From NCBI GenBank assembly GCA_000092065.1, contig CP000589.1: a stretch of DNA of 64,000 nt. One strand, 5' to 3'. The notes under the pieces are model-generated. The model did no database searches and was not told the origin of the DNA. It worked only from the letters and a program-made list of their open reading frames with translations. Numbering within the stretch: the stretch's first letter is position 1; every line of letters begins with the position of its first letter. Position numbers and translations under genes: made by a program. Shown here piece after piece: positions 1 through 23,981 of this stretch. The DNA is from Ostreococcus lucimarinus. Taxonomy: Eukaryota.

Positions 1-1154
1 TCAGAGCAGTGGCGCAAGGCACACAACGCGTCAGCGAAGCGCTCACGCCGCAAGAAATTGAAGCGAACGAAGCTAGAGACGCGGCGTCGACGACGTCTTC
101 GTCGGTGGAAAGTGAGACCACAACCGACGAGAGGCAGGCGCAGCTCGACGCGATCGAAGCGTTGGCCGCAAAGCAATCGCAAGAGTTGCTTGAACGCCAA
201 CGCGCGAATCAAGAGCGTTTGAAAAGACTGCAGCTCGAGTACCAAGCCGCCAAGGCGGAGCTCGCAAAGGTTGAAAAGAAAAGCACGGCAAAAATGGCTG
301 CAAAAGTTGTCAAAGTTGACGACCGCGCGACGTCCACCGACGCCGAGGAAGACGAGAAGGAACGCATTCGTTCTGAGACAAACATCATCAAGGCTCGTAC
401 ATCTCTCAAGAAAGCCGCTCAAAAGGCGAAGAGTGACGCCCGAAAGTCTGAAAAAGAAGCGCGCGTACAGGAAAAGCGCCAAGTGGAGGAGACTGGCGTA
501 ACAACTAAGGACGCGGTGAACGGTGCAAATCTCTTCGCCGGCTTCGTCGCCTCGGCGCTTAAAACCGTCGCCACGCTGGGCGGAGCGGAAGTTTTGCGTC
601 GTCGTCAAGAGGCTGATCGCGATGCGTCGAAAGCGCGCTTACTTTTGGAATTGGTGGATGTCGACGGCGGCCGCGAATGTAGTCCAGACACGCTCGAGCG
701 CATCAACGAGGCAATCGCCACGCTCGAGGCGTTGAATCCCACAAAAAAAGGAGCGAAGAGCACTCTGATGCTCGGCCTTTGGAGCTGCGCGTTCACGAAT
801 TGTCCGCAGATTCTGGGAACGGAAGGCATCAACATGATGAAACAGAAGGGCGCGACCACATTCTTTAGCTACGATCTCGACACCGAGCGGTGCGAAATCG
901 ACCGAGGGTGGCCTCTGAGACGTCTGCGAGCGAGCGTATCGTACAGAACTGATTCTTCGTTCGAGCTCGATATTCCCCTGGCTCCCATATCTAAAGTGTT
1001 CGGGATTTCGTTATCCAACGAAGAGCGCAACTACTCCGCCCTGACGGTGACGTATCTCGATCCGGACATGCAAATTTGCCGAGGTCGCGACGATACCGTG
1101 TACGTCTTCGTGCAAAACGACCCGACGCACAGGCTCGATCTCATCGGCGATTAA
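1..1154 (+). CDS. Fibrillin / plastid lipid-associated protein (PAP) domain protein with N-terminal coiled-coil; 5' end probably outside the window
   Basis: The frame is open from the window edge; the track start at 9 is GTG and the first in-frame ATG is at 294. The C-terminal half has fibrillin-type motifs: LLELVDVDGGRECSPDTLERINEAIATLEALNPT, LGLWSCAFTNCPQILG, LTVTYLDPDMQICRGRDDTVYVFV. Stop at 1152-1154. Confidence 0.75.
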   Translation, partial: RAVAQGTQRVSEALTPQEIEANEARDAASTTSSSVESETTTDERQAQLDAIEALAAKQSQELLERQRANQERLKRLQLEYQAAKAELAKVEKKSTAKMAAKVVKVDDRATSTDAEEDEKERIRSETNIIKARTSLKKAAQKAKSDARKSEKEARVQEKRQVEETGVTTKDAVNGANLFAGFVASALKTVATLGGAEVLRRRQEADRDASKARLLLELVDVDGGRECSPDTLERINEAIATLEALNPTKKGAKSTLMLGLWSCAFTNCPQILGTEGINMMKQKGATTFFSYDLDTERCEIDRGWPLRRLRASVSYRTDSSFELDIPLAPISKVFGISLSNEERNYSALTVTYLDPDMQICRGRDDTVYVFVQNDPTHRLDLIGD

Positions 1155-1330
1155 CGCGACGCGCGAAGCGTTCGTTCCTCGCCTCGCCTTAGCTCTCGCG
1201 TTGTGATAGAGGTGCCCGCAATCGTCCCTCAACTCCCCCCCGGTGCCCGGATTTTCAGAGAATCGCGATCGCGCGCAGAACTCGGAGACGAGCGCGCGCC
1301 GGCGCGGCGCCACCGCGCGTCGCGCGCGCG

Positions 1331-3892
1331 ATGTCGAACCCGCTCGAAGAACGCTTCCGCAGGTCATGGTTCGAACACCTCAGTCGCCTTCGAGAAGTCG
1401 AAGCCGCGTGCGCGCCGGAGATCGAAGGCGATCCGGCCCTCCGGTACAGCGTGCCCCGGATCGTCTGCATCGGTGAAGAGTCCTCTGGGAAATCCTCCAC
1501 GCTCGAGCGCGTGGCGATGATGAGCGTGTTTCCGAGCGACGAGAGACTGTGCACGCGGGTGCCGATCGAGCTGCGGCTGAGGCATCGCGATCGGGAGAGT
1601 TTGGCAAAGGAGGAAGAGCGGTTTAGGGACGGGTACGTCGTCATGAAAATGGCGCCGGGCGAGGATTCCAAGTTAAACGCGGACGTTTCCTCACAGATGC
1701 ATCCCGATGAAGTTCCGGCGCAAGTTCGCACGTGGATGGAAGAGCTAGTCGCGGCGGCGAACGGCAAAGTGACGGGCGTGACGGATGACCGGATAATCAT
1801 CGAGCTGTACTCTCCGCTGTGCGTCAACCTGGATTTGATCGATTTACCTGGGATCGTGGCTGGGAGCATACCAGGGGAGCCTACGGACATGATGGACCGC
1901 ACGAGAAATCTATCGGCATCGTTCTTGAATGATAAGGCGCATCCACATACGTTTGTCATCGCCGTCGCATCGGCGCGCGAGGCGAGAATTCGTAACTCGC
2001 AAGCGATGGAATTGGTGCAGCGTTACAATAAAGTGCAATTCACTATTGGTGCTTTGACGATGGCGGATCTTTCAGCAGACAGTCGCCGTGAATCACCATA
2101 TACGAGACTGATCGAACGTTTGAATGCACAAGCGGACGATACGCCGGAGCTCGGTCTTGGGTACGTGGCTCTCAAGAATCGCGACACCGTTACGGCGACA
2201 CGAGAAAACCAATCGAGAGAAGAACTCGAGAAGGCCAACCAAGATGAAAAAGAATGGTTTGCTGAGCATCTTTCCGGACATACTGAACGCTGTGGCATTG
2301 AAAGTCTCGTCGATAGACTCGTGCAAAAAGTTGACGAGTACACCAGGGGGCCATGGATCGTAGCCGAGCGCGAGCGCATCGAGACTGAGCTCGTGAAAGT
2401 GCGACAAGAATTAAGCGACATGGGCGAGTTCCTGCCGAACGATTTGAATGAACTTATTTCTTACTTTTCCAGTGAGATAGAGAAGCAGTGTAAACCTTCG
2501 TTTGAAACACTTCTTGAGTTTGTTCCAACGGTGACATCCGGCAGCGCCGGACTGCAAGATATCTACGACGCCGCAAACTTTACGATTTGGCAACACAGCG
2601 ATATCCACTCGCTAATGCCGTCAATTTCTCCAACCACTTTAAAGACATTCGACGGTCGAATGTTCTACGGCGAACCCACCTTTACAAAAAGATGGTCGCC
2701 GTTTGTGAAAATCACGCACAAACATCTTTTTGGGCAAGACACGCAGACACCTGAGACACCGTCCCATGCCTCATCAAATGGCGTTTGGACAATGCGGCGT
2801 GACGCTATAAACACAATTTCAGATCACTTCAATCAGACTTTTTGTAACGGTAGCCTGCTATTCGTTGGCCGACGTTGCTCATACGACGACGATGGTTGCG
2901 GTGGTGACAAGTTGGTTGGATTCTTTATCACACAGGACATGATACAACAAAGAAGACACGATATTCAGACCATGTTGGCGGCGTTGGGCAAGCGTGTGCC
3001 AACAGACAACCGTTCTCCTTGGACGAAGAGAGAGAACCATGAGAGCGATTCTCAGGATTCGAATTCTCAGTCACCAAATAATGTTGGAACAGGCACTGGT
3101 TTTGATTTTGCTCCGAACCTTTTTACTCAGCGTGCAGAGCGCGGACCGTTTCGTCGCGCGCGACGTTCAACGCGCGGCGGTCTCGAACAAGATGGGGAAG
3201 TAGTTGTTCTTTACCACCCTGCACGACCAGCTTTCAGAGCGAAGTTAGAGATATCTGAGGACCTGGAGAAATATTATGAGAACGTCTTGCATCTGCGCGA
3301 GTCTGTCGTTCGGATTTTCCAGACGAATGCTCGCGCCTTCTTTAAATCATCAATCACGGACGTATTGGACGTTCTGAAAGCAAAGGATGCGCGATTTTCT
3401 GTGTTTTTCGAATCGCTCTCTGTGATTCTTGATGATTGGTGCGAGGTGTGTGTTCGGAACGTAACCACTGAATTTGCTGAGTGGCTTACGAGGACAGGAG
3501 CCGTATCAGAGAATCGTGATGCGCATTTTCAAATCACCGCTTCGTATTTTACTAACTCGATAACACGCAAAATGCGCGAAATGATATTCTTTCATTACGC
3601 TGATTCAAGCATTGCCAAAGTTTTCGAATCAGGCGAGCTCAATGAAATCATGCGGCGGCACTGCGACGAGCATAACATCGATGTAGACGATCTTTACGTT
3701 GAAAACTGTGTTGAACAGCGTAAGAAAGCGGTGATGAAAATGGAAATGCTGACAACCATGAAGAACAGCCTACATCAAATATTTACGAGTGAAGTGGACG
3801 AACAAAGTAACGAACAACTTCCAAACACGCCAGAAGCAGATGCGGCACCTGTCCCGACTCTCTCGCACTCTCTCAGTCGAACTTCGATCTGA
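1331..3892 (+). CDS. Dynamin-family large GTPase, divergent (853 aa)
   Basis: ATG at 1331. G1 P-loop is IGEESSGKSSTLE (compare dynamin GxQSxGKSSVLE). G3 is DLIDLPG and the G4-like motif is TMADL. A long helical C-terminal region follows. Confidence 0.8.
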   Translation: MSNPLEERFRRSWFEHLSRLREVEAACAPEIEGDPALRYSVPRIVCIGEESSGKSSTLERVAMMSVFPSDERLCTRVPIELRLRHRDRESLAKEEERFRDGYVVMKMAPGEDSKLNADVSSQMHPDEVPAQVRTWMEELVAAANGKVTGVTDDRIIIELYSPLCVNLDLIDLPGIVAGSIPGEPTDMMDRTRNLSASFLNDKAHPHTFVIAVASAREARIRNSQAMELVQRYNKVQFTIGALTMADLSADSRRESPYTRLIERLNAQADDTPELGLGYVALKNRDTVTATRENQSREELEKANQDEKEWFAEHLSGHTERCGIESLVDRLVQKVDEYTRGPWIVAERERIETELVKVRQELSDMGEFLPNDLNELISYFSSEIEKQCKPSFETLLEFVPTVTSGSAGLQDIYDAANFTIWQHSDIHSLMPSISPTTLKTFDGRMFYGEPTFTKRWSPFVKITHKHLFGQDTQTPETPSHASSNGVWTMRRDAINTISDHFNQTFCNGSLLFVGRRCSYDDDGCGGDKLVGFFITQDMIQQRRHDIQTMLAALGKRVPTDNRSPWTKRENHESDSQDSNSQSPNNVGTGTGFDFAPNLFTQRAERGPFRRARRSTRGGLEQDGEVVVLYHPARPAFRAKLEISEDLEKYYENVLHLRESVVRIFQTNARAFFKSSITDVLDVLKAKDARFSVFFESLSVILDDWCEVCVRNVTTEFAEWLTRTGAVSENRDAHFQITASYFTNSITRKMREMIFFHYADSSIAKVFESGELNEIMRRHCDEHNIDVDDLYVENCVEQRKKAVMKMEMLTTMKNSLHQIFTSEVDEQSNEQLPNTPEADAAPVPTLSHSLSRTSI

Positions 3893-3969
3893 TACTTTTG
3901 TGGAACCCGTGGAGTAAAGAGTCGTAACAACAATGAATCAAATATACAACATGTTTTCTATGTTTTCTT

Positions 3970-5787
3970 CTACAAAAGTCCCGCGCGCGTTATCTCGAGC
4001 AACTCGTCCCCTGGCGCCGAGCGCACGTGAAAGTTCACCAGCGTCGGTTGCATGTACGCGATGGAAATGGACATCGCGAACGGGTACACGGGATGAAAAA
4101 CGTACTGCACGCGTCGCTTGCTTCGTCCGTTATTCGCCAGGGAGTTGTTCAGCATTAACTTGAAACTCACGCGACGCCGTTGACCCTGTTGCGCGCTGAC
4201 GAATTTAATGCCAAAGTCCACGTGCGGCTGCAAGCGGTCGATGGCGGTGATCGTGCGCTCGTCGTAAGAGAAGAGCCTCTTGTCAAAGTACGGCGACAGC
4301 GACCTGAACTGCGGTGGGTAATCTTGCGTACGGAACAAGCGCGTGGCGATGGTGTTGAACGCATCCTCATCGTCGTCATCGATCTCCGCCGTGGACGTGT
4401 TACACACAGCCAGCGCCTCTCCTTGGCTCCCCGCGAAGCGCGCCCAGGGAAAATCGCCGCGCGGCGGAGCGTTTAACTCTTCGTCCACCATTCCATTCGT
4501 ATCGCTCATGCTCGTCGCCGTCTGCGTAAATGCATTCTTACTCAGATCGAAGACACCATACATCGTCGGCCCGATGACGTTGTCCCCGCGCCGCGCCAGC
4601 GCGTACTCGGGCGTGCCAAACTTGATGAGGAGCAAATTCGCGTCCAGGATGCGCACGCGAAGCATCACCAACGACACGTATCGCTCAAAGTTTCGGTGCA
4701 ACAGTCGCAGCGCGTCCGGGCTCGACGATCGTCGCGCGTCGTGATATAACGATGTCACCAAACGCTGCGTCAATCCGGTGAGCATCGACCGCCCCGAGGC
4801 GGCGAATCCCGTCGCGCGCGTTCGCGCCTTCTCCGCCGCTTGCGGTTCGGCGTCCATCCAAGCCCGCTCGCGCGCGTCTTGTGCGGCTACAGTTTCCTTG
4901 TCCTCGTTCGTGATGTGCTCACCGATCGATGCGACTTCTTCGAATCGTCCCTCTTCGTGCACTCGCAGAAAAATCACGCGCTGATGCTTCATCGACAACA
5001 CCGCGAGCGTGTCGCCTCGAAGACTCACCGCGCCGTTCCGCGGCAGGTGCATGAAATCGTCTCGAAACGTGAACGAGTCCAATTTCTCGCCCGTCTTCGT
5101 GCGCACGAGATGTAACACGATGCGCTGCATCGAAGGCGCTCCCGAAATCCCGCCCGACGTCTCCTGCGTCTCCGTTCCGCGTCGCCCTCTCGCTCGCGCC
5201 GCCGCTCGCGCCGGCGCCCCGTCTTCGTCCTCTCGCATCGCCCCTCCCGCGGCGACCGACGACCCATCCAACGGCGTCGCGCTCGCCGCGACGATGTACT
5301 CCCCATCGTGCACCTCGAGCATGAAATCCTTCACGATCGCGTCGTCTCCATCGCTCAGATGCGTCGTCCACTTCTCTTCAAAGTACGACCAAAACGATCC
5401 CATCGCCCGCTCCGTCGCCTCGCTCGCCACCACCTCCCCTCGCTTATCCCGCCTCAGGCACGCCCGCATTCCCCTGAACGCGTACCCCACCAGCTCTTGC
5501 TGATGTCTCGACACGCACAGCAGCATCGACCCGTCGTTCGTGAACTTTCTCGGCGCCACGTCGGGAAAATCGCACACGCGACACGTCGCGTTCGGCGTCA
5601 CCCCGCTCGCGTACACTCGCCGCGCGTTCGCGTGATCGTTCCCCGCGCCTCGTCCCAGCGCCGCGCGATCGAGCGTCCACCTGAAGACGCTCGCGCGCGA
5701 CGTCTCCGCGTCGCCGTCGCGTCTTCCGCGCGCCATCCCGTCGCCATCGTCGCCGTCGTCGTCGTCGCGCCGCCGCTTCTTATCCAT
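3970..5787 (-). CDS. DET1: DET1 (de-etiolated 1) homologue, 605 aa
   Basis: Minus-strand ATG at 5787 (MDKKRRRDDDD). DET1-like along its length: ARRVYASGVTPNATCRVCDFPDVAPRKFTNDGSMLLCVSRHQQELVGY matches the plant RKFTEDG..ISFSRNHQELIVY block. The C-terminus has YFDKRLFSYDERTITAIDRLQP ... VFHPVYPFAMSI ... VNFHVR. The 410 extra codons in track ORF 3970..7017 are Arg/Ala low complexity overlapping the opposite-strand GT gene. Confidence 0.88.
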   Translation of the reverse strand: MDKKRRRDDDDGDDGDGMARGRRDGDAETSRASVFRWTLDRAALGRGAGNDHANARRVYASGVTPNATCRVCDFPDVAPRKFTNDGSMLLCVSRHQQELVGYAFRGMRACLRRDKRGEVVASEATERAMGSFWSYFEEKWTTHLSDGDDAIVKDFMLEVHDGEYIVAASATPLDGSSVAAGGAMREDEDGAPARAAARARGRRGTETQETSGGISGAPSMQRIVLHLVRTKTGEKLDSFTFRDDFMHLPRNGAVSLRGDTLAVLSMKHQRVIFLRVHEEGRFEEVASIGEHITNEDKETVAAQDARERAWMDAEPQAAEKARTRATGFAASGRSMLTGLTQRLVTSLYHDARRSSSPDALRLLHRNFERYVSLVMLRVRILDANLLLIKFGTPEYALARRGDNVIGPTMYGVFDLSKNAFTQTATSMSDTNGMVDEELNAPPRGDFPWARFAGSQGEALAVCNTSTAEIDDDDEDAFNTIATRLFRTQDYPPQFRSLSPYFDKRLFSYDERTITAIDRLQPHVDFGIKFVSAQQGQRRRVSFKLMLNNSLANNGRSKRRVQYVFHPVYPFAMSISIAYMQPTLVNFHVRSAPGDELLEITRAGLL

Positions 5788-12540: not shown

Positions 12541-14775
12541 TCAATCTACATCCTTTAACGAAGAGGCCGCGCGCGCGGACGTATTTTCGACGGTCGCGCT
12601 CTCCGATCGCGCGACGGATAAAACTTCGAGTTTTGCCTTCATGTCGGCGAGTTTCTTGGCTTGCTCCTCGGCACGCTTTTCCTTCATTCGCTTTTGCAAC
12701 CGACCAACCTTGTACAAGTCTTCGTAATTCGTTATCACCGCCACGTCCGGGTTCTCGCGTATGGCCTTGTCTTCCGCCGTTTCCTCGTCTTCCGATTCGG
12801 TGTCCCAACCGAAATCGTCGTCGTCGCGCGTGAAATCCGCCTTCGCAATGATTTCCCAATCTCTGGCGAGATCGTTTGGCACGGGCGCGATGGATCCTTC
12901 GGGTACGCGCGCGTCACCGCTCGGCATTTTTGACTCATGAGAGCTAGCGTGCACGCGAAGCGCGTATGGACTCGAGCCCATGAGCACGTCTCGACACGAC
13001 ACGACAAGACGGTAAAAGCCATCCTCGACGGGCTCGTACGAAGCCACGAATCGCCCGCGTCCGTCGTCTTCAATCTTCACTCCATCCTTAGTTTTGATTT
13101 CGTGTCCGTTGACGTCGGTGACCGAGATTTGCAAAGGAAGCTGCTCGCTTAAGTTTCCAAACACATCGTTATCGAATTCATCGCGAGCCTTGATCGTAAA
13201 CGATGCGCGCTGTGAAACCGCGGCTCGCCTCGTACCATCGCCTTCGACGACGCAATGCTTTGCGCTCGCACGCGCGGGCTCGACCACGACGTCGTATGGA
13301 GAGTTTCCGCACTGTTCGTCGTTTCCAATGATGACTTCGCACTGATACGCGCCGGCGACCGTGCACGTGTAGTACGCCACATACGTCCCGTCGCCGTTAT
13401 CCGTCACGGTGCCGTATTCGACGAGTTCGTCGTCCGTCTCCATGGAATCCACGTGTGTTAGCTTGACGGTAAATATATCTCCCCCGCTCAAGCGTTTATT
13501 CTTCAACTCATCCTTCGCCTCGATGCCAATCATGCTCGCTTCCCCCGCGCGCGCTTTCACGACGCCCGGCCCGAAAACTTTCGTAAACGCCGGTTCGGCG
13601 GTACTTTGGCACCAGCAATCGCGTTCCCATTCGCCGCGATACTTTGTGCCATCGGCGAAGACGCACACGCCGTAACCGTGTCGCTCGTCTCGCACCCACT
13701 CGCCTTGATATTCATCACCGTTGGCGTACGTGCACGCGCCTTTGCCGTGTCGCTTACCGTCACACCACTCGCCCTGGTAAATTGTGCCGTCGGCGTACAA
13801 TCGCTTGCCTTTGCCGTTTTCGGCGTCTTCGTCGAACGCGCCGCGATACTCCTCACCGAGGTCGGTGAATTTGCAAACGCCCTGTCCTTTTCGACGACCC
13901 CCTTCAAAGTCTCCAACGTACTCGAACGTCGCTGTTTTCAACACGCCCTTGCCGTGATACTGATCGTCTCGCCACTCGCCGTCGTACGTCGATCCCGTGG
14001 CGAGTTCGCACTTGCCTCGCCCGTGCCTGAGATCGTCGCGCCACTGCCCTATGTACTTGTACGACCCAACGGCGGCAAACTTACCGCGACCATGCCGATA
14101 ATCACCGCGCCACTCTCCGTCGTACTCCACCGATCCGTCCTTCGCCGCGTACCTTCCGCGCACTCGCGATCCCGAAAGCGTCGCGCCGTTAAACGTGGAC
14201 CCGTCCGCGTACGTATACATCCCATTACCCTCGACGATATCATCCACCCATTCGCCCTCGTACACGTCCCCGCTCGCGAAACGTTGCGTACCCCACCCCC
14301 AGCGATGATCATTCTTCCACTCACCCTCGTACACGTCGCCGTTGACGTACTCGCACCTCCCTCGCCCGCACGTCTTGTCGTCTTCCCATTCGCCCTCGTA
14401 CTTCAATCCCGACTTGAATGTCATCGTCCCTCGTCCGTGTCGCTTATCGTCCCTCCAGTACCCATCGTACACGTCCCCAGTGCTACACACGTGTCTCCCT
14501 CGTCCGTGTCGCGTCTCATCGACGCACTCGCCCACGTACTCGTCGCCGTTCGTGTACTCGAGCGCGCGCTCGTCGTAATACCGAGGCTCGAGCGCTTCCG
14601 CCTCATCCACGATCGCGCGCGACTCCGCGTCGTCCTCGGCGCGCGCGAGCATTTCCCTTCGCACCGCGCGCAACCGCTCGAGCTCCGCGCGCATCTCCTC
14701 CGTCGTCCGTTTCTTCCCTCCATCATCCGCCTCCGCCTCGCGCGTCCCGACGATTCGTCCATGATCGACGCTCGC

Positions 14776-22472: not shown

Positions 22473-23426
22473 ATGCCGCGCGCGCGCCGCGCCGCGACGC
22501 GCGCCGCGGACGAGAGCGCGCGCGACGAAAAAAAATCACCGCCCGCTCGCGCGACGCGCGCGCGCGGCGCGACGCCGGCGCGCGCGCCGCCGCCGCCGCG
22601 ACCGACCGACCGACCGCGACGACGCGCGACGGCGACGACGACGACGACGCGCGCGACGCGCGCGCGGTCGAACGCGCGGTCGCGCGCGGTGCTCTTGGTC
22701 GCGCTCGCGGCGGCGCTCGCGCTCGGCGCGCTGCGCGCGCGACGCGCGACGACGACGGGACGCGGCGGCGGCGCGGACGCCGACGCGGCGGCGCGCGCGA
22801 CGACGCTGCGGCGCGCGCTCGACGCGGTGACGCGAAGCGCGAGCGCGGTGGAGTTCTTCGTCGAGGACGTGGCGACGCGACGGGCGTCGCACAAGGCGCC
22901 GACGGTGCTGGTGGCGGCGAACACGCCGGAGGGGTTGCGCGCGGCGCGGGCGAGTCTGGAGGCGACGCTGCGGAGGGGCGCGCGCGGGCGGTGCGCGATG
23001 ACGCTGGACTGCGCGGCGGCGAACCTGCGGGAGTTGGACGCGGACGAGGCGCGAGGGCGGTTGCAGCGCGCGCTGGCGCGACACTTGGCGGGATGTTCGC
23101 GCGACGAGGACGGCGCCGTCGTGGTGCTGCACGACGTCGCGAACATGTCGCCCGAGCACGTCCCGGCGTTGCTTCCCGCGCTGAGCGAAGACGGGGCGTA
23201 CGCGTACGATGGGGAATCGATCTCGACGACGAGAGGCGTGTTCGTTCTCACCGCGCACCTGCCGGCGACTCGAGCGGCGGCGGCGGCGCCGACGGACGAG
23301 AAGACGTTCACGAACGCGGCGAAGATGGCTTTATTGGACGCCATGCGCGCGAAAACTAGCGACGACGACGCCACGGCGTTGGCGTTTAGACGTAGAATAG
23401 ACGTCGCCGTTCCGGCGAACGCGTGA
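22473..23426 (+). CDS. Type II membrane protein with torsin/LAP1-like degenerate AAA+ luminal domain (tentative), 317 aa
   Basis: ATG at 22473 after the CG spacer. Basic N-terminus, then the TM segment AVLLVALAAALALGAL. VVVLHDVANMSPEHVPALLPALSEDGAYAYDGESISTTRGVFVLTAHL parallels the torsin block [44 protein letters not shown]. At the P-loop position PTVLVAANTPEGLR has no GxxGxGK. Third codon positions are almost all G/C in this frame. Confidence 0.6.
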   Translation: MPRARRAATRAADESARDEKKSPPARATRARGATPARAPPPPRPTDRPRRRATATTTTTRATRARSNARSRAVLLVALAAALALGALRARRATTTGRGGGADADAAARATTLRRALDAVTRSASAVEFFVEDVATRRASHKAPTVLVAANTPEGLRAARASLEATLRRGARGRCAMTLDCAAANLRELDADEARGRLQRALARHLAGCSRDEDGAVVVLHDVANMSPEHVPALLPALSEDGAYAYDGESISTTRGVFVLTAHLPATRAAAAAPTDEKTFTNAAKMALLDAMRAKTSDDDATALAFRRRIDVAVPANA

Positions 23427-23582
23427 CGGCGCGTAAAATGTAACCGTAACCGTTACTATTTTCAACCGCACGTACTGTAACTGTTTTCAAAAATCCGCGC
23501 GTCGACGCGGCACCGCGCGCGACGTCGCGGGAACGAACCGCGACGACGACGCGATCGTGACGTGCACGATCCATCGCCGTCG

Positions 23583-23660
23583 CGTCGGCGCGTCCATCAT
23601 CGCGGACGCGGCGCCGAACGAATCGGCGTTTTCGCGTCCCGAGTCACTCCGCCTTCGTCC
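23583..23660 (-). promoter_or_regulatory. SECIS element (form 2) in the SelW 3' UTR
   Basis: The minus-strand RNA contains GUGA (23647-23644), then an 11-nt 5' arm (CUCGGGACGCG), an AAAA bulge (23632-23629), and a mini-helix CGCCGA/UCGGCG with a UUCGU loop. The 3' arm CGCGUCC-G-CGA follows, then UGAU (23599-23596). Helix II has 7+3 Watson-Crick pairs with one bulged G, and tandem sheared A.G/G.A plus U.U are possible at the core. A short helix I pairs GGCG (23653-23650) with CGCC (23590-23587). The element starts about 60 nt after the stop codon. Confidence 0.75.
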
Positions 23661-23711: not shown

Positions 23712-23981
23712 CTACCGCGCGTTCTCGCCGAGCGCGCGCTCCACGGCGCTCAAGATGCGCTCAATCTTCACCGGATCGTCGACGTACCCGTCGCCTCGCG
23801 TCAACTTTGAGTGCACTAATTCGCCGGCGACTTTGACCTCGAGCGCGCCGCTCGTCGTCGGCGTCGGCTCCGCGGCCACGGAGGCTCGCGGAAATTTCGC
23901 CACGATGGCGCGCTCGATCGCCGTCGCGAAGCGCAGGTAGCCTCAGCCGCCTCAGTAAGTGATGTGTACGAGAGGATTCAT
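23712..23981 (-). CDS. SELENOW: Selenoprotein W (Rdx family) with two in-frame UGA (Sec) codons, 89 aa
   Basis: Manual minus-strand translation from ATG 23981 gives MNPLVHITY-U-GG-U-GYLRFATAIERAIVAKFPRASVAAEPTPTTSGALEVKVAGELVHSKLTRGDGYVDDPVKIERILSAVERALGENAR, ending at TAG 23712-23714. The TGAs are at 23952-23954 and 23943-23945 (TCA on the + strand). It aligns with vertebrate SelW (VVYCGAUGY ... [23 protein letters not shown]). The track shows only a GTG-started 63-aa fragment. Confidence 0.85.

What the first reader, a model, noticed from the sequence alone, without database searches (positions are those of the whole stretch)
23583..23660. Form-2 SECIS with a GUGA rather than AUGA core
I folded the minus-strand 3' UTR by hand. 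The structure has these parts in order:
- a 5' core G-UGA (23647-23644);
- an 11-nt arm CUCGGGACGCG;
- an unpaired AAAA (23632-23629);
- a 6-bp mini-helix CGCCGA/UCGGCG capped by UUCGU;
- a 3' arm CGCGUCC-(G bulge)-CGA;
- a 3' core UGAU (23599-23596).

This gives 10 Watson-Crick pairs between the core and the AAAA, with tandem sheared A.G/G.A plus U.U at the core. That is the K-turn-like architecture expected of a eukaryotic SECIS with the AA motif in an internal bulge.

The base preceding UGA is G rather than the usual A. The AUGA visible at 23600-23597 is used as the 3' side, not the 5' side.
Basis: seen in the sequence. Interest (0 to 1): 0.55.

Follow-up and report, generated by a model that had tools for sequence, protein, structure and literature searches.

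The report
Known Ostreococcus SelW-like gene's SECIS
The hairpin is a genuine selenocysteine-insertion (SECIS) element in the 3' UTR of a small SelW-like gene with two in-frame UGA codons, but this gene was published in 2007 and a G before the UGA core was described then as normal for Ostreococcus, so the finding is correct but ordinary.

Summary
On the minus strand, 23647-23596 forms GUGA(C), a 10-bp helix II with one bulged G, an unpaired AAAA, a 6-bp mini-stem capped by UUCGU, and a UGAU 3' core. A short helix I flanks it at 23653-23650/23590-23587.

The element lies 64 nt after the stop codon of an 89-codon Rdx/SelW-like ORF (23981-23712, minus strand). That ORF has two in-frame TGA codons in its redox motif (Y-U-G-G-U-G-Y).

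The protein is identical to "O. lucimarinus Wb", the two-Sec SelW-like selenoprotein printed in the supplement of Lobanov et al. 2007. That paper states that all Ostreococcus SECIS elements but one have G before the quartet, and that almost all in O. tauri have a long mini-stem.

Eight diverged syntenic orthologs from metagenomes all carry a GUGA SECIS at the same place. Helix II shows strong covariation: 6 of 10 pairs have compensatory double changes, and 98.9% of cells are paired against 77.9% in shuffles. The first Sec position switches between UGA and Cys codons among lineages.

Rfam's SECIS models do not detect the element.

Verdict: a real, functional-looking form-2 SECIS. Already known; low interest.

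The parts
23712..23981 (-). SelW-like (Rdx family) selenoprotein CDS: ATG at 23981 to TAG at 23714-23712, 89 codons, MNPLVHITY-U-GG-U-GYLRF...GENAR
   Evidence: Translation. With U replaced by C, Pfam Rdx PF10262 matches at E = 1.8e-13. The sequence is identical to 'O.lucimarinus Wb' in supplement 2 of PMC2375036.
23952..23954 (-). First in-frame UGA (Sec), first position of the UxxU redox motif
   Evidence: Orthologs L014 and L019 have a Cys codon here, and seven other lineages (window included) have TGA.
23943..23945 (-). Second in-frame UGA (Sec); aligns with the Sec of SelW CxxU
   Evidence: TGA in all nine lineages. It aligns with the U of human, mouse and zebrafish SelW in the published alignment.
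23587..23653 (-). Complete SECIS element from helix I to helix I (helix I is GGCG 23653-23650 paired with CGCC 23590-23587)
   Evidence: Centroid and MFE structures.
23643..23647 (-). 5' SECIS core G-UGA-C (G 23647, UGA 23646-23644, C 23643)
   Evidence: GUGA is invariant in all nine orthologous elements (G13 T14 G15 A16).
23633..23642 (-). Helix II 5' arm UCGGGACGCG
   Evidence: Pair probabilities 0.95-0.99. Covariation in orthologs.
23629..23632 (-). Unpaired AAAA (the AA motif) in the internal loop
   Evidence: The AA is invariant in orthologs (A30 A31).
23612..23628 (-). Apical mini-stem CGCCGA/UCGGCG (6 bp) with UUCGU loop
   Evidence: The apical domain varies in length and sequence among orthologs.
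23600..23610 (-). Helix II 3' arm CGCGUCC-(G 23603 bulged)-CGA; C 23611 is unpaired opposite AAAA
23596..23599 (-). 3' SECIS core UGAU. The implied non-Watson-Crick pairs are C23643.U23599, A23644.G23598, G23645.A23597 and U23646.U23596.
   Evidence: The GA is invariant in orthologs (G62 A63). The pairing geometry is inferred from the established SECIS K-turn model, not computed.

Best explanation
This is the SECIS element of the Ostreococcus lucimarinus SelW-like selenoprotein gene 'Wb'. The mRNA is transcribed from the minus strand. Its 89-codon ORF has two UGA codons three codons apart, forming a U-G-G-U redox motif. The 3' UTR folds into a form-2 SECIS. It has a K-turn-like core of tandem sheared G.A/A.G pairs flanked by U.U and C.U, a 10-bp helix II, an unpaired AAAA, and a mini-stem.

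By the established eukaryotic mechanism, the core is bound by SECIS-binding protein 2. SBP2 recruits eEFSec carrying Sec-tRNA(Sec) to the ribosome, so both UGA codons (298 and 307 nt upstream of the core) are read as selenocysteine instead of stop.

Shown here: the sequence and structure, the gene context, identity to the published selenoprotein, and conservation and covariation in orthologs. Inferred: SBP2 binding, the non-canonical pair geometry, and actual recoding.
For: 1. The structure is at the stated coordinates and is the thermodynamically preferred fold in every context tried.
2. It lies 64 nt after the TAG of an ORF with two in-frame TGA codons. With U read as C, the ORF matches Pfam Rdx at E = 1.8e-13, and the TGAs fall on the CxxC/CxxU motif.
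3. The protein is identical over all 89 residues to 'O.lucimarinus Wb' in the supplement of Lobanov et al. 2007. The main text says this SelW-like protein has two predicted Sec residues. Jiang et al. 2020 list it again as a UxxU SELENOW.
4. Eight diverged lineages share the synteny CLPTM1 - MFS sugar transporter - Rdx gene (MFS proteins 52-61% identical). Each has a SECIS-pattern element after the Rdx gene, and GUGA, AA and GA are invariant.
5. Helix II covaries. 98.9% of cells are paired against 77.9% in shuffles (0/500). Six of 10 pairs show double changes. The covariation score is 0.669 against 0.234 (0/500). Slid registers pair only 24-53%.
6. The first UGA is a Cys codon in L014 and L019, the classic Sec/Cys signature.
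7. It is the top SECIS-pattern hit in the window. Shuffles give 0.08 comparable hits per window.
Against: Rfam's SECIS covariance models give no hit, not even at E <= 10 on a 96-nt slice.

Folding energy is not better than shuffles for the element alone (z = +0.92 and -1.05).

The covariation alignment was built from per-sequence constrained folds, with the apical domain and bulged nucleotides removed. This leans towards pairing. However, the 5' arm columns were aligned without gaps by MAFFT independently.

There is no transcript, 75Se-labelling or reporter evidence for this particular gene here.
Confidence: 0.95

Rival explanations
1. The hairpin is a generic GC-rich 3'-end or terminator-type stem-loop lying between two convergent genes, and the SECIS-like motifs are coincidental.
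For: The element sits in a 285-nt gap between the stops of convergent ORFs (23712 on the minus strand, 23426 on the plus strand). The whole 3' region is heavily structured (212 nt, z = -3.2). A second long hairpin follows immediately. The energy of the element alone is not exceptional.
Against: A generic hairpin would not keep GUGA, AA and GA invariant in nine lineages while the stem sequence changes by compensatory substitutions. It would also not be expected always to follow an ORF with in-frame UGA at a redox Cys position. The gene is a published selenoprotein.
Confidence: 0.02
2. The upstream ORF is a pseudogene or a short 63-aa protein starting after the UGAs, as automatic gene callers predict, and the SECIS-like fold is a relic.
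For: Gene callers in the public collections call only the 63-69 aa C-terminal fragment.
Against: The N-terminal part with both TGA codons stays in frame, with the conserved (Y/F)-U/C-G-x-U-G motif, in all lineages. This holds even across introns in L014, L019 and L022. Pfam Rdx needs the N-terminal motif region (residues 5-65 match). The first position alternates only between TGA and Cys codons. Calling only the fragment is the known annotation artefact for selenoproteins (PMC2375036).
Confidence: 0.03

Closest known systems
SECIS of the Ostreococcus lucimarinus SelW-like selenoprotein 'Wb' (Lobanov et al. 2007, Genome Biol 8:R198, PMC2375036)
   Same: The upstream protein is identical over 89 of 89 residues, including both U positions. 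The element has the two hallmarks the paper gives for Ostreococcus SECIS elements, an unpaired G before the quartet and a long mini-stem.
   Different: Nothing detectable. The paper's SECIS figures are images, so the published SECIS sequence could not be compared letter by letter.
Canonical metazoan form-2 SECIS (AUGA_AA_GA; Rfam SECIS_1 RF00031)
   Same: UGA/GA quartet, 11 nt between UGA and the AA motif, AA in an internal loop below a mini-stem, helix I with an internal loop, and location in the 3' UTR.
   Different: G instead of A before the quartet. It is very GC-rich with a 6-bp mini-stem. The Rfam models do not detect it at any threshold tried.
G-type SECIS elements of Chlamydomonas, the sponge Amphimedon and Thorarchaeia selD
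   Same: GUGA_AA or GUGA_GA core pattern (PMC3473315; PMC11227280).
   Different: Different genes and lineages. These show that the G variant recurs widely and tends to be organism-specific rather than gene-specific.
UxxU SELENOW of amphioxus
   Same: Two Sec residues in the SelW redox motif, decoded with one SECIS (PMC7539508).
   Different: Animal lineage. According to that paper it is an independent Cys-to-Sec conversion.

Membership tests
Eukaryotic SECIS element | Lies in the 3' UTR of an mRNA whose ORF has an in-frame UGA at a position where homologs have Cys or Sec | tested here: met
   The element starts 64 nt after the TAG of the Rdx ORF. Two in-frame TGAs fall on the redox motif. Cys replaces the first TGA in L014 and L019. 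The published alignment places the second TGA at the SelW Sec.
Eukaryotic SECIS element | Core quartet: 5' UGAN opposite 3' NGAN, able to form tandem G.A/A.G pairs | tested here: met
   5' UGAC at 23646-23643 and 3' UGAU at 23599-23596. UGA and GA are invariant in nine lineages. The pair geometry itself was not computed.
Eukaryotic SECIS element | Unpaired AA (or CC) motif 10-13 nt after the quartet, at the top of helix II | tested here: met
   AAAA at 23632-23629, 11 nt after UGA. The criterion is as stated in the Methods of PMC2375036. Found by the scan.
Eukaryotic SECIS element | Helix II of about 9-12 bp between core and AA, plus helix I below an internal loop | tested here: met
   10 bp with one bulge, pair probabilities 0.95-0.99. 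A 4-bp helix I appears in the MFE and centroid structures.
Eukaryotic SECIS element | Structure conserved with covariation in orthologous genes | tested here: met
   Six of 10 helix II pairs show double changes. 98.9% of cells are paired against 77.9% in shuffles, 0/500. My own count agrees.
Eukaryotic SECIS element | Match to the curated covariance model (Rfam SECIS_1) | tested here: not met
   No SECIS family hit at gathering score or at E <= 10 on 601-nt and 96-nt slices. My reading, not tested: the model does not suit this GC-rich, G-type algal form.
Eukaryotic SECIS element | Binds SBP2 and directs UGA recoding | not testable with these tools
   Needs a reporter or binding assay. According to PMC2375036 the organism has 29 predicted selenoproteins, which implies that it uses Sec.
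Form 2 (type II) SECIS | AA motif in an internal loop or bulge, with an additional mini-stem above it | tested here: met
   AAAA on the 5' side and a single C on the 3' side, below a 6-bp mini-stem with a 5-nt loop.
SelW / Rdx family selenoprotein (the host gene) | Thioredoxin-like Rdx domain with an N-terminal CxxC/CxxU motif | tested here: met
   Pfam PF10262 at E = 1.8e-13, 50.9 bits against a cutoff of 22.6. The motif is Y-U-G-G-U-G-Y against SelW Y-C-G-A/G-U-G-Y.

The most novel reading that the evidence does not exclude
The gene and its SECIS are known, but two things seen here do not appear in the papers read.

(a) The two-Sec UxxU form and its G-type SECIS are not peculiar to O. lucimarinus. 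They are kept across at least seven diverged, mostly uncultured relatives, and two lineages have CxxU. The first position has therefore switched between Sec and Cys more than once, or UxxU is ancestral.

(b) A long hairpin immediately 3' of the SECIS recurs in most lineages with unrelated sequence. It could be a functional 3'-end or insulating element between convergent genes, or it could modulate SECIS presentation.
Probability: 0.15. Interest if true: 0.3.

Novelty: already known. Interest (0 to 1): 0.1.

Why it matters
The result matters mainly as a check on annotation. It shows that the window comes from Ostreococcus lucimarinus or a near-identical strain. It also shows that automatic gene callers truncate this selenoprotein to a 63-aa fragment, and that Rfam's SECIS models miss algal G-type SECIS elements. 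It adds nothing new about Sec decoding, because the G-before-quartet variant and this two-Sec SelW-like gene were described in 2007.

Tried and rejected
- **Rfam search.** Gathering thresholds on the whole window, then E <= 10 on 601-nt and 96-nt slices, gave no SECIS hit, only chance matches to bacterial sRNAs.
- **Single-sequence covariance model.** Model R1 was built from the window element. The orthologous SECIS elements scored only 12-17 bits, buried among about 130 GC-rich chance hits, so it could not serve for discovery or alignment.
- **MAFFT alignment of whole elements (A2) and of elements with bulges kept (A3).** These misplace the 3' arms, because bulges and apical domains differ. 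I therefore used a trimmed alignment without the apical domain and bulged nucleotides (A6) and state that bias.
- **Word-indexed protein search with the SelW-like protein (U read as C).** It found only the truncated 63-aa fragment of the same species. Orthologs had to be reached through the neighbouring MFS transporter.
- **Loci L001-L010.** These are identical to the window across the element and give no covariation information.
- **Other SECIS-pattern candidates in the window.** 12830-12895 (+) and 50406-50350 (-) lie antisense inside long coding ORFs with no UGA-containing ORF upstream. Their scores are at chance level.
- **Published SECIS sequence.** A search of the 2007 supplement found none, because the figures are images. 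The 2020 supplement's SELENOW alignment is also an image.
- **Organism names.** Cluster members carried none. The organism was identified from the published protein sequence instead.

Full report
**Observation.**
- G-UGA at 23647-23644, followed by C at 23643.
- The 5' arm UCGGGACGCG at 23642-23633.
- AAAA at 23632-23629.
- The mini-stem CGCCGA/UCGGCG at 23628-23623 and 23617-23612, capped by UUCGU.
- The 3' arm CGCGUCC-(G 23603)-CGA at 23610-23600.
- UGAU at 23599-23596.

Unconstrained RNAfold returns this helix II and mini-stem as the minimum-energy structure for 76, 121, 212, 285 and 555 nt of context. Pair probabilities are 0.95-0.99 in four of the five contexts and 0.46 in the 121-nt cut. 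The centroid leaves the quartet open and adds a 4-bp helix I, GGCG 23653-23650 with CGCC 23590-23587.

Stability alone is not informative in this GC-rich DNA (z = +0.92 and -1.05). I therefore wrote a SECIS-pattern scanner. It requires NUGAN, then 9-13 nt, AA, 12-44 nt and NGAN, with helix II enforced by constrained folding. The element is the best hit on either strand of the window (-25.5 kcal/mol, 10 helix II pairs). Twenty-five dinucleotide shuffles of the window gave 0.08 hits per window at that energy.

**Context.** Directly upstream on the same strand lies an ORF running from ATG 23981 to TAG 23714-23712. It reads MNPLVHITY*GG*GYLRFATAIERAIVAKFPRASVAAEPTPTTSGALEVKVAGELVHSKLTRGDGYVDDPVKIERILSAVERALGENAR, with two in-frame TGA codons at 23954-23952 and 23945-23943.
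- With the two stops read as Cys, it matches Pfam Rdx (PF10262, the SelW/SelT/SelH family) at E = 1.8e-13. The TGAs fall on the redox motif.
- The SECIS core begins 64 nt after the stop codon, and 298 and 307 nt after the two UGAs.
- The next gene is convergent: a plus-strand ORF ending at 23426. The 285-nt gap therefore holds both 3' ends.

**Identity.** Supplement 2 of Lobanov et al. 2007 (PMC2375036) prints a SelW alignment. Its row 'O.lucimarinus Wb' reads MNP-L-VHITY UGGUGY LRFATAIER AIVAK FPRASV AAEPTPTTSGAL EVKVAG ELVHSKLTRGDGYVDDPVKIERILSAVERALGENAR, which is identical to the window ORF. The main text says that O. lucimarinus has an extra SelW-like selenoprotein with two predicted Sec residues. 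[quoted passage not shown] For O. tauri it reports the same G and, in almost all elements, a long mini-stem.
- Jiang et al. 2012 (PMC3473315) summarise GUGA_AA as the majority pattern in Chlamydomonas and Ostreococcus and in a sponge.
- Jiang et al. 2020 (PMC7539508) list a UxxU SELENOW from O. lucimarinus.
- A 2024 paper notes the same G-type core in Thorarchaeia selD.

The window is therefore O. lucimarinus or a near-identical strain. The gene, its two Sec codons and the G-type core are already in the literature.

**Independent support from related sequences.** The word-indexed protein search found only the 63-aa fragment that gene callers predict after the UGAs. Ten metagenome contigs carrying it are identical to the window across the gene and the SECIS.

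To reach diverged relatives I searched with the neighbouring MFS sugar transporter. It gave ten orthologs at 52-61% identity, and I fetched all ten loci. Two of those contigs end just after the transporter gene. The other eight lineages carry an Rdx gene after the transporter, and CLPTM1 lies before the transporter on every contig that reaches that far.

The redox motif of the Rdx gene is:
- U-G-G/S-U in the window, L016, L011, L013, L018, L020 and L022.
- C-G-G/S-U in L014 and L019.

Three lineages have an intron in the gene. The first UGA therefore alternates only with Cys codons. This is the standard signature of a real Sec position.

The scanner found one SECIS-pattern element after each of these genes, and all have GUGA. 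In the MAFFT alignment of the nine elements, GUGA, the AA and the 3' GA are invariant, while the rest is 59% identical on average.

Helix II covaries. On an alignment trimmed of the variable apical domain and bulged nucleotides:
- 98.9% of cells form standard pairs, against 77.9% in shuffles (0/500).
- Six of 10 pairs have changes on both sides.
- The covariation score is 0.669 against 0.234 (0/500).
- Sliding the register drops pairing to 24-53%.

My own count gave the same picture. The trimming and the per-sequence constrained folds bias the percentage paired upward. The double substitutions at positions 2-7 do not depend on that, because MAFFT alone aligned the 5' arm without gaps.

**Mechanism.** By the established model for eukaryotic Sec insertion, the tandem G.A/A.G core forms a K-turn-like motif. 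Here G23645.A23597 and A23644.G23598 are flanked by U23646.U23596 and C23643.U23599. This motif is bound by SBP2, which brings eEFSec carrying Sec-tRNA(Sec) to ribosomes paused at UGA. One SECIS serves both UGAs. These steps are inferred from the family, not shown here.

**What did not work.**
- Rfam's SECIS models do not detect the element at any threshold. I record this as a failed membership feature and read it as a limit of the model for GC-rich, G-type algal elements.
- A covariance model built from the window element alone could not separate the orthologs from GC-rich noise.
- Two other pattern hits in the window lie antisense inside coding ORFs and are at chance level.
- There is no tRNA gene in the window.

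**Verdict.** The small additions are that the UxxU form and its SECIS are shared by many uncultured relatives, with Sec/Cys switching at the first position, and that a second long hairpin sits just 3' of the SECIS in most lineages.

Noticed in passing
window 23540-23583 (minus strand; outer pairs extend to 23531-23595); same relative position in L011, L013, L014, L018, L020, L022: A long, nearly perfect hairpin (19 bp in the window) starts about 13 nt after the SECIS 3' core. Comparable hairpins of unrelated sequence follow the SECIS in 7 of 9 lineages. The z-scores of the 110 nt downstream range from -5.0 (L014) to +1.3 (L016). In the window, this hairpin, the SECIS and a long basal stem form a three-way junction (212 nt, z = -3.2). 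Function unknown; it may be a 3'-end or insulating element between convergent genes.
   Followed up: partly
L014:8192-8230 and L019, about 5136-5185, compared with window 23943-23954: The first position of the redox motif is a Cys codon in two orthologous lineages (CGGU, CGSU) and TGA in seven (UGGU, UGSU). The two-Sec form is therefore widespread among relatives, not specific to O. lucimarinus.
   Followed up: partly
L014, L019, L022 (Rdx gene between the MFS gene and the SECIS): The SelW-like gene is interrupted by an intron in these lineages. In L019 it lies right after the U-G of the motif, and in L014 and L022 after AIER. The gene is intron-less in the window, L011, L013 and L016.
   Followed up: no
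window 23712-23903 (minus strand); P0001: Public gene calls truncate this selenoprotein to a 63-aa fragment starting at the GTG at 23903, after the two UGAs. The fragment is on record in 62 blocks of the contig collection, and its protein cluster lists 41 contigs. This is a systematic mis-annotation.
   Followed up: yes
window 23984 (minus strand), compared with L003, L004, L006, L008, L009, L010: The only polymorphism across the gene and SECIS region among the near-identical contigs is G/A three bases before the ATG (GTGATG versus ATGATG). The A allele would add a second in-frame Met codon.
   Followed up: no
window 23430-23500: An AT-rich stretch lies between the convergent genes. On the plus strand it contains two TGTAA motifs, the polyadenylation signal known from Chlamydomonas (from memory, not checked). 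It may mark the 3'-end processing zone.
   Followed up: no
window 1-4000: GC content drops to 0.53 in the first 4 kb, against 0.56-0.67 elsewhere in the window.
   Followed up: no
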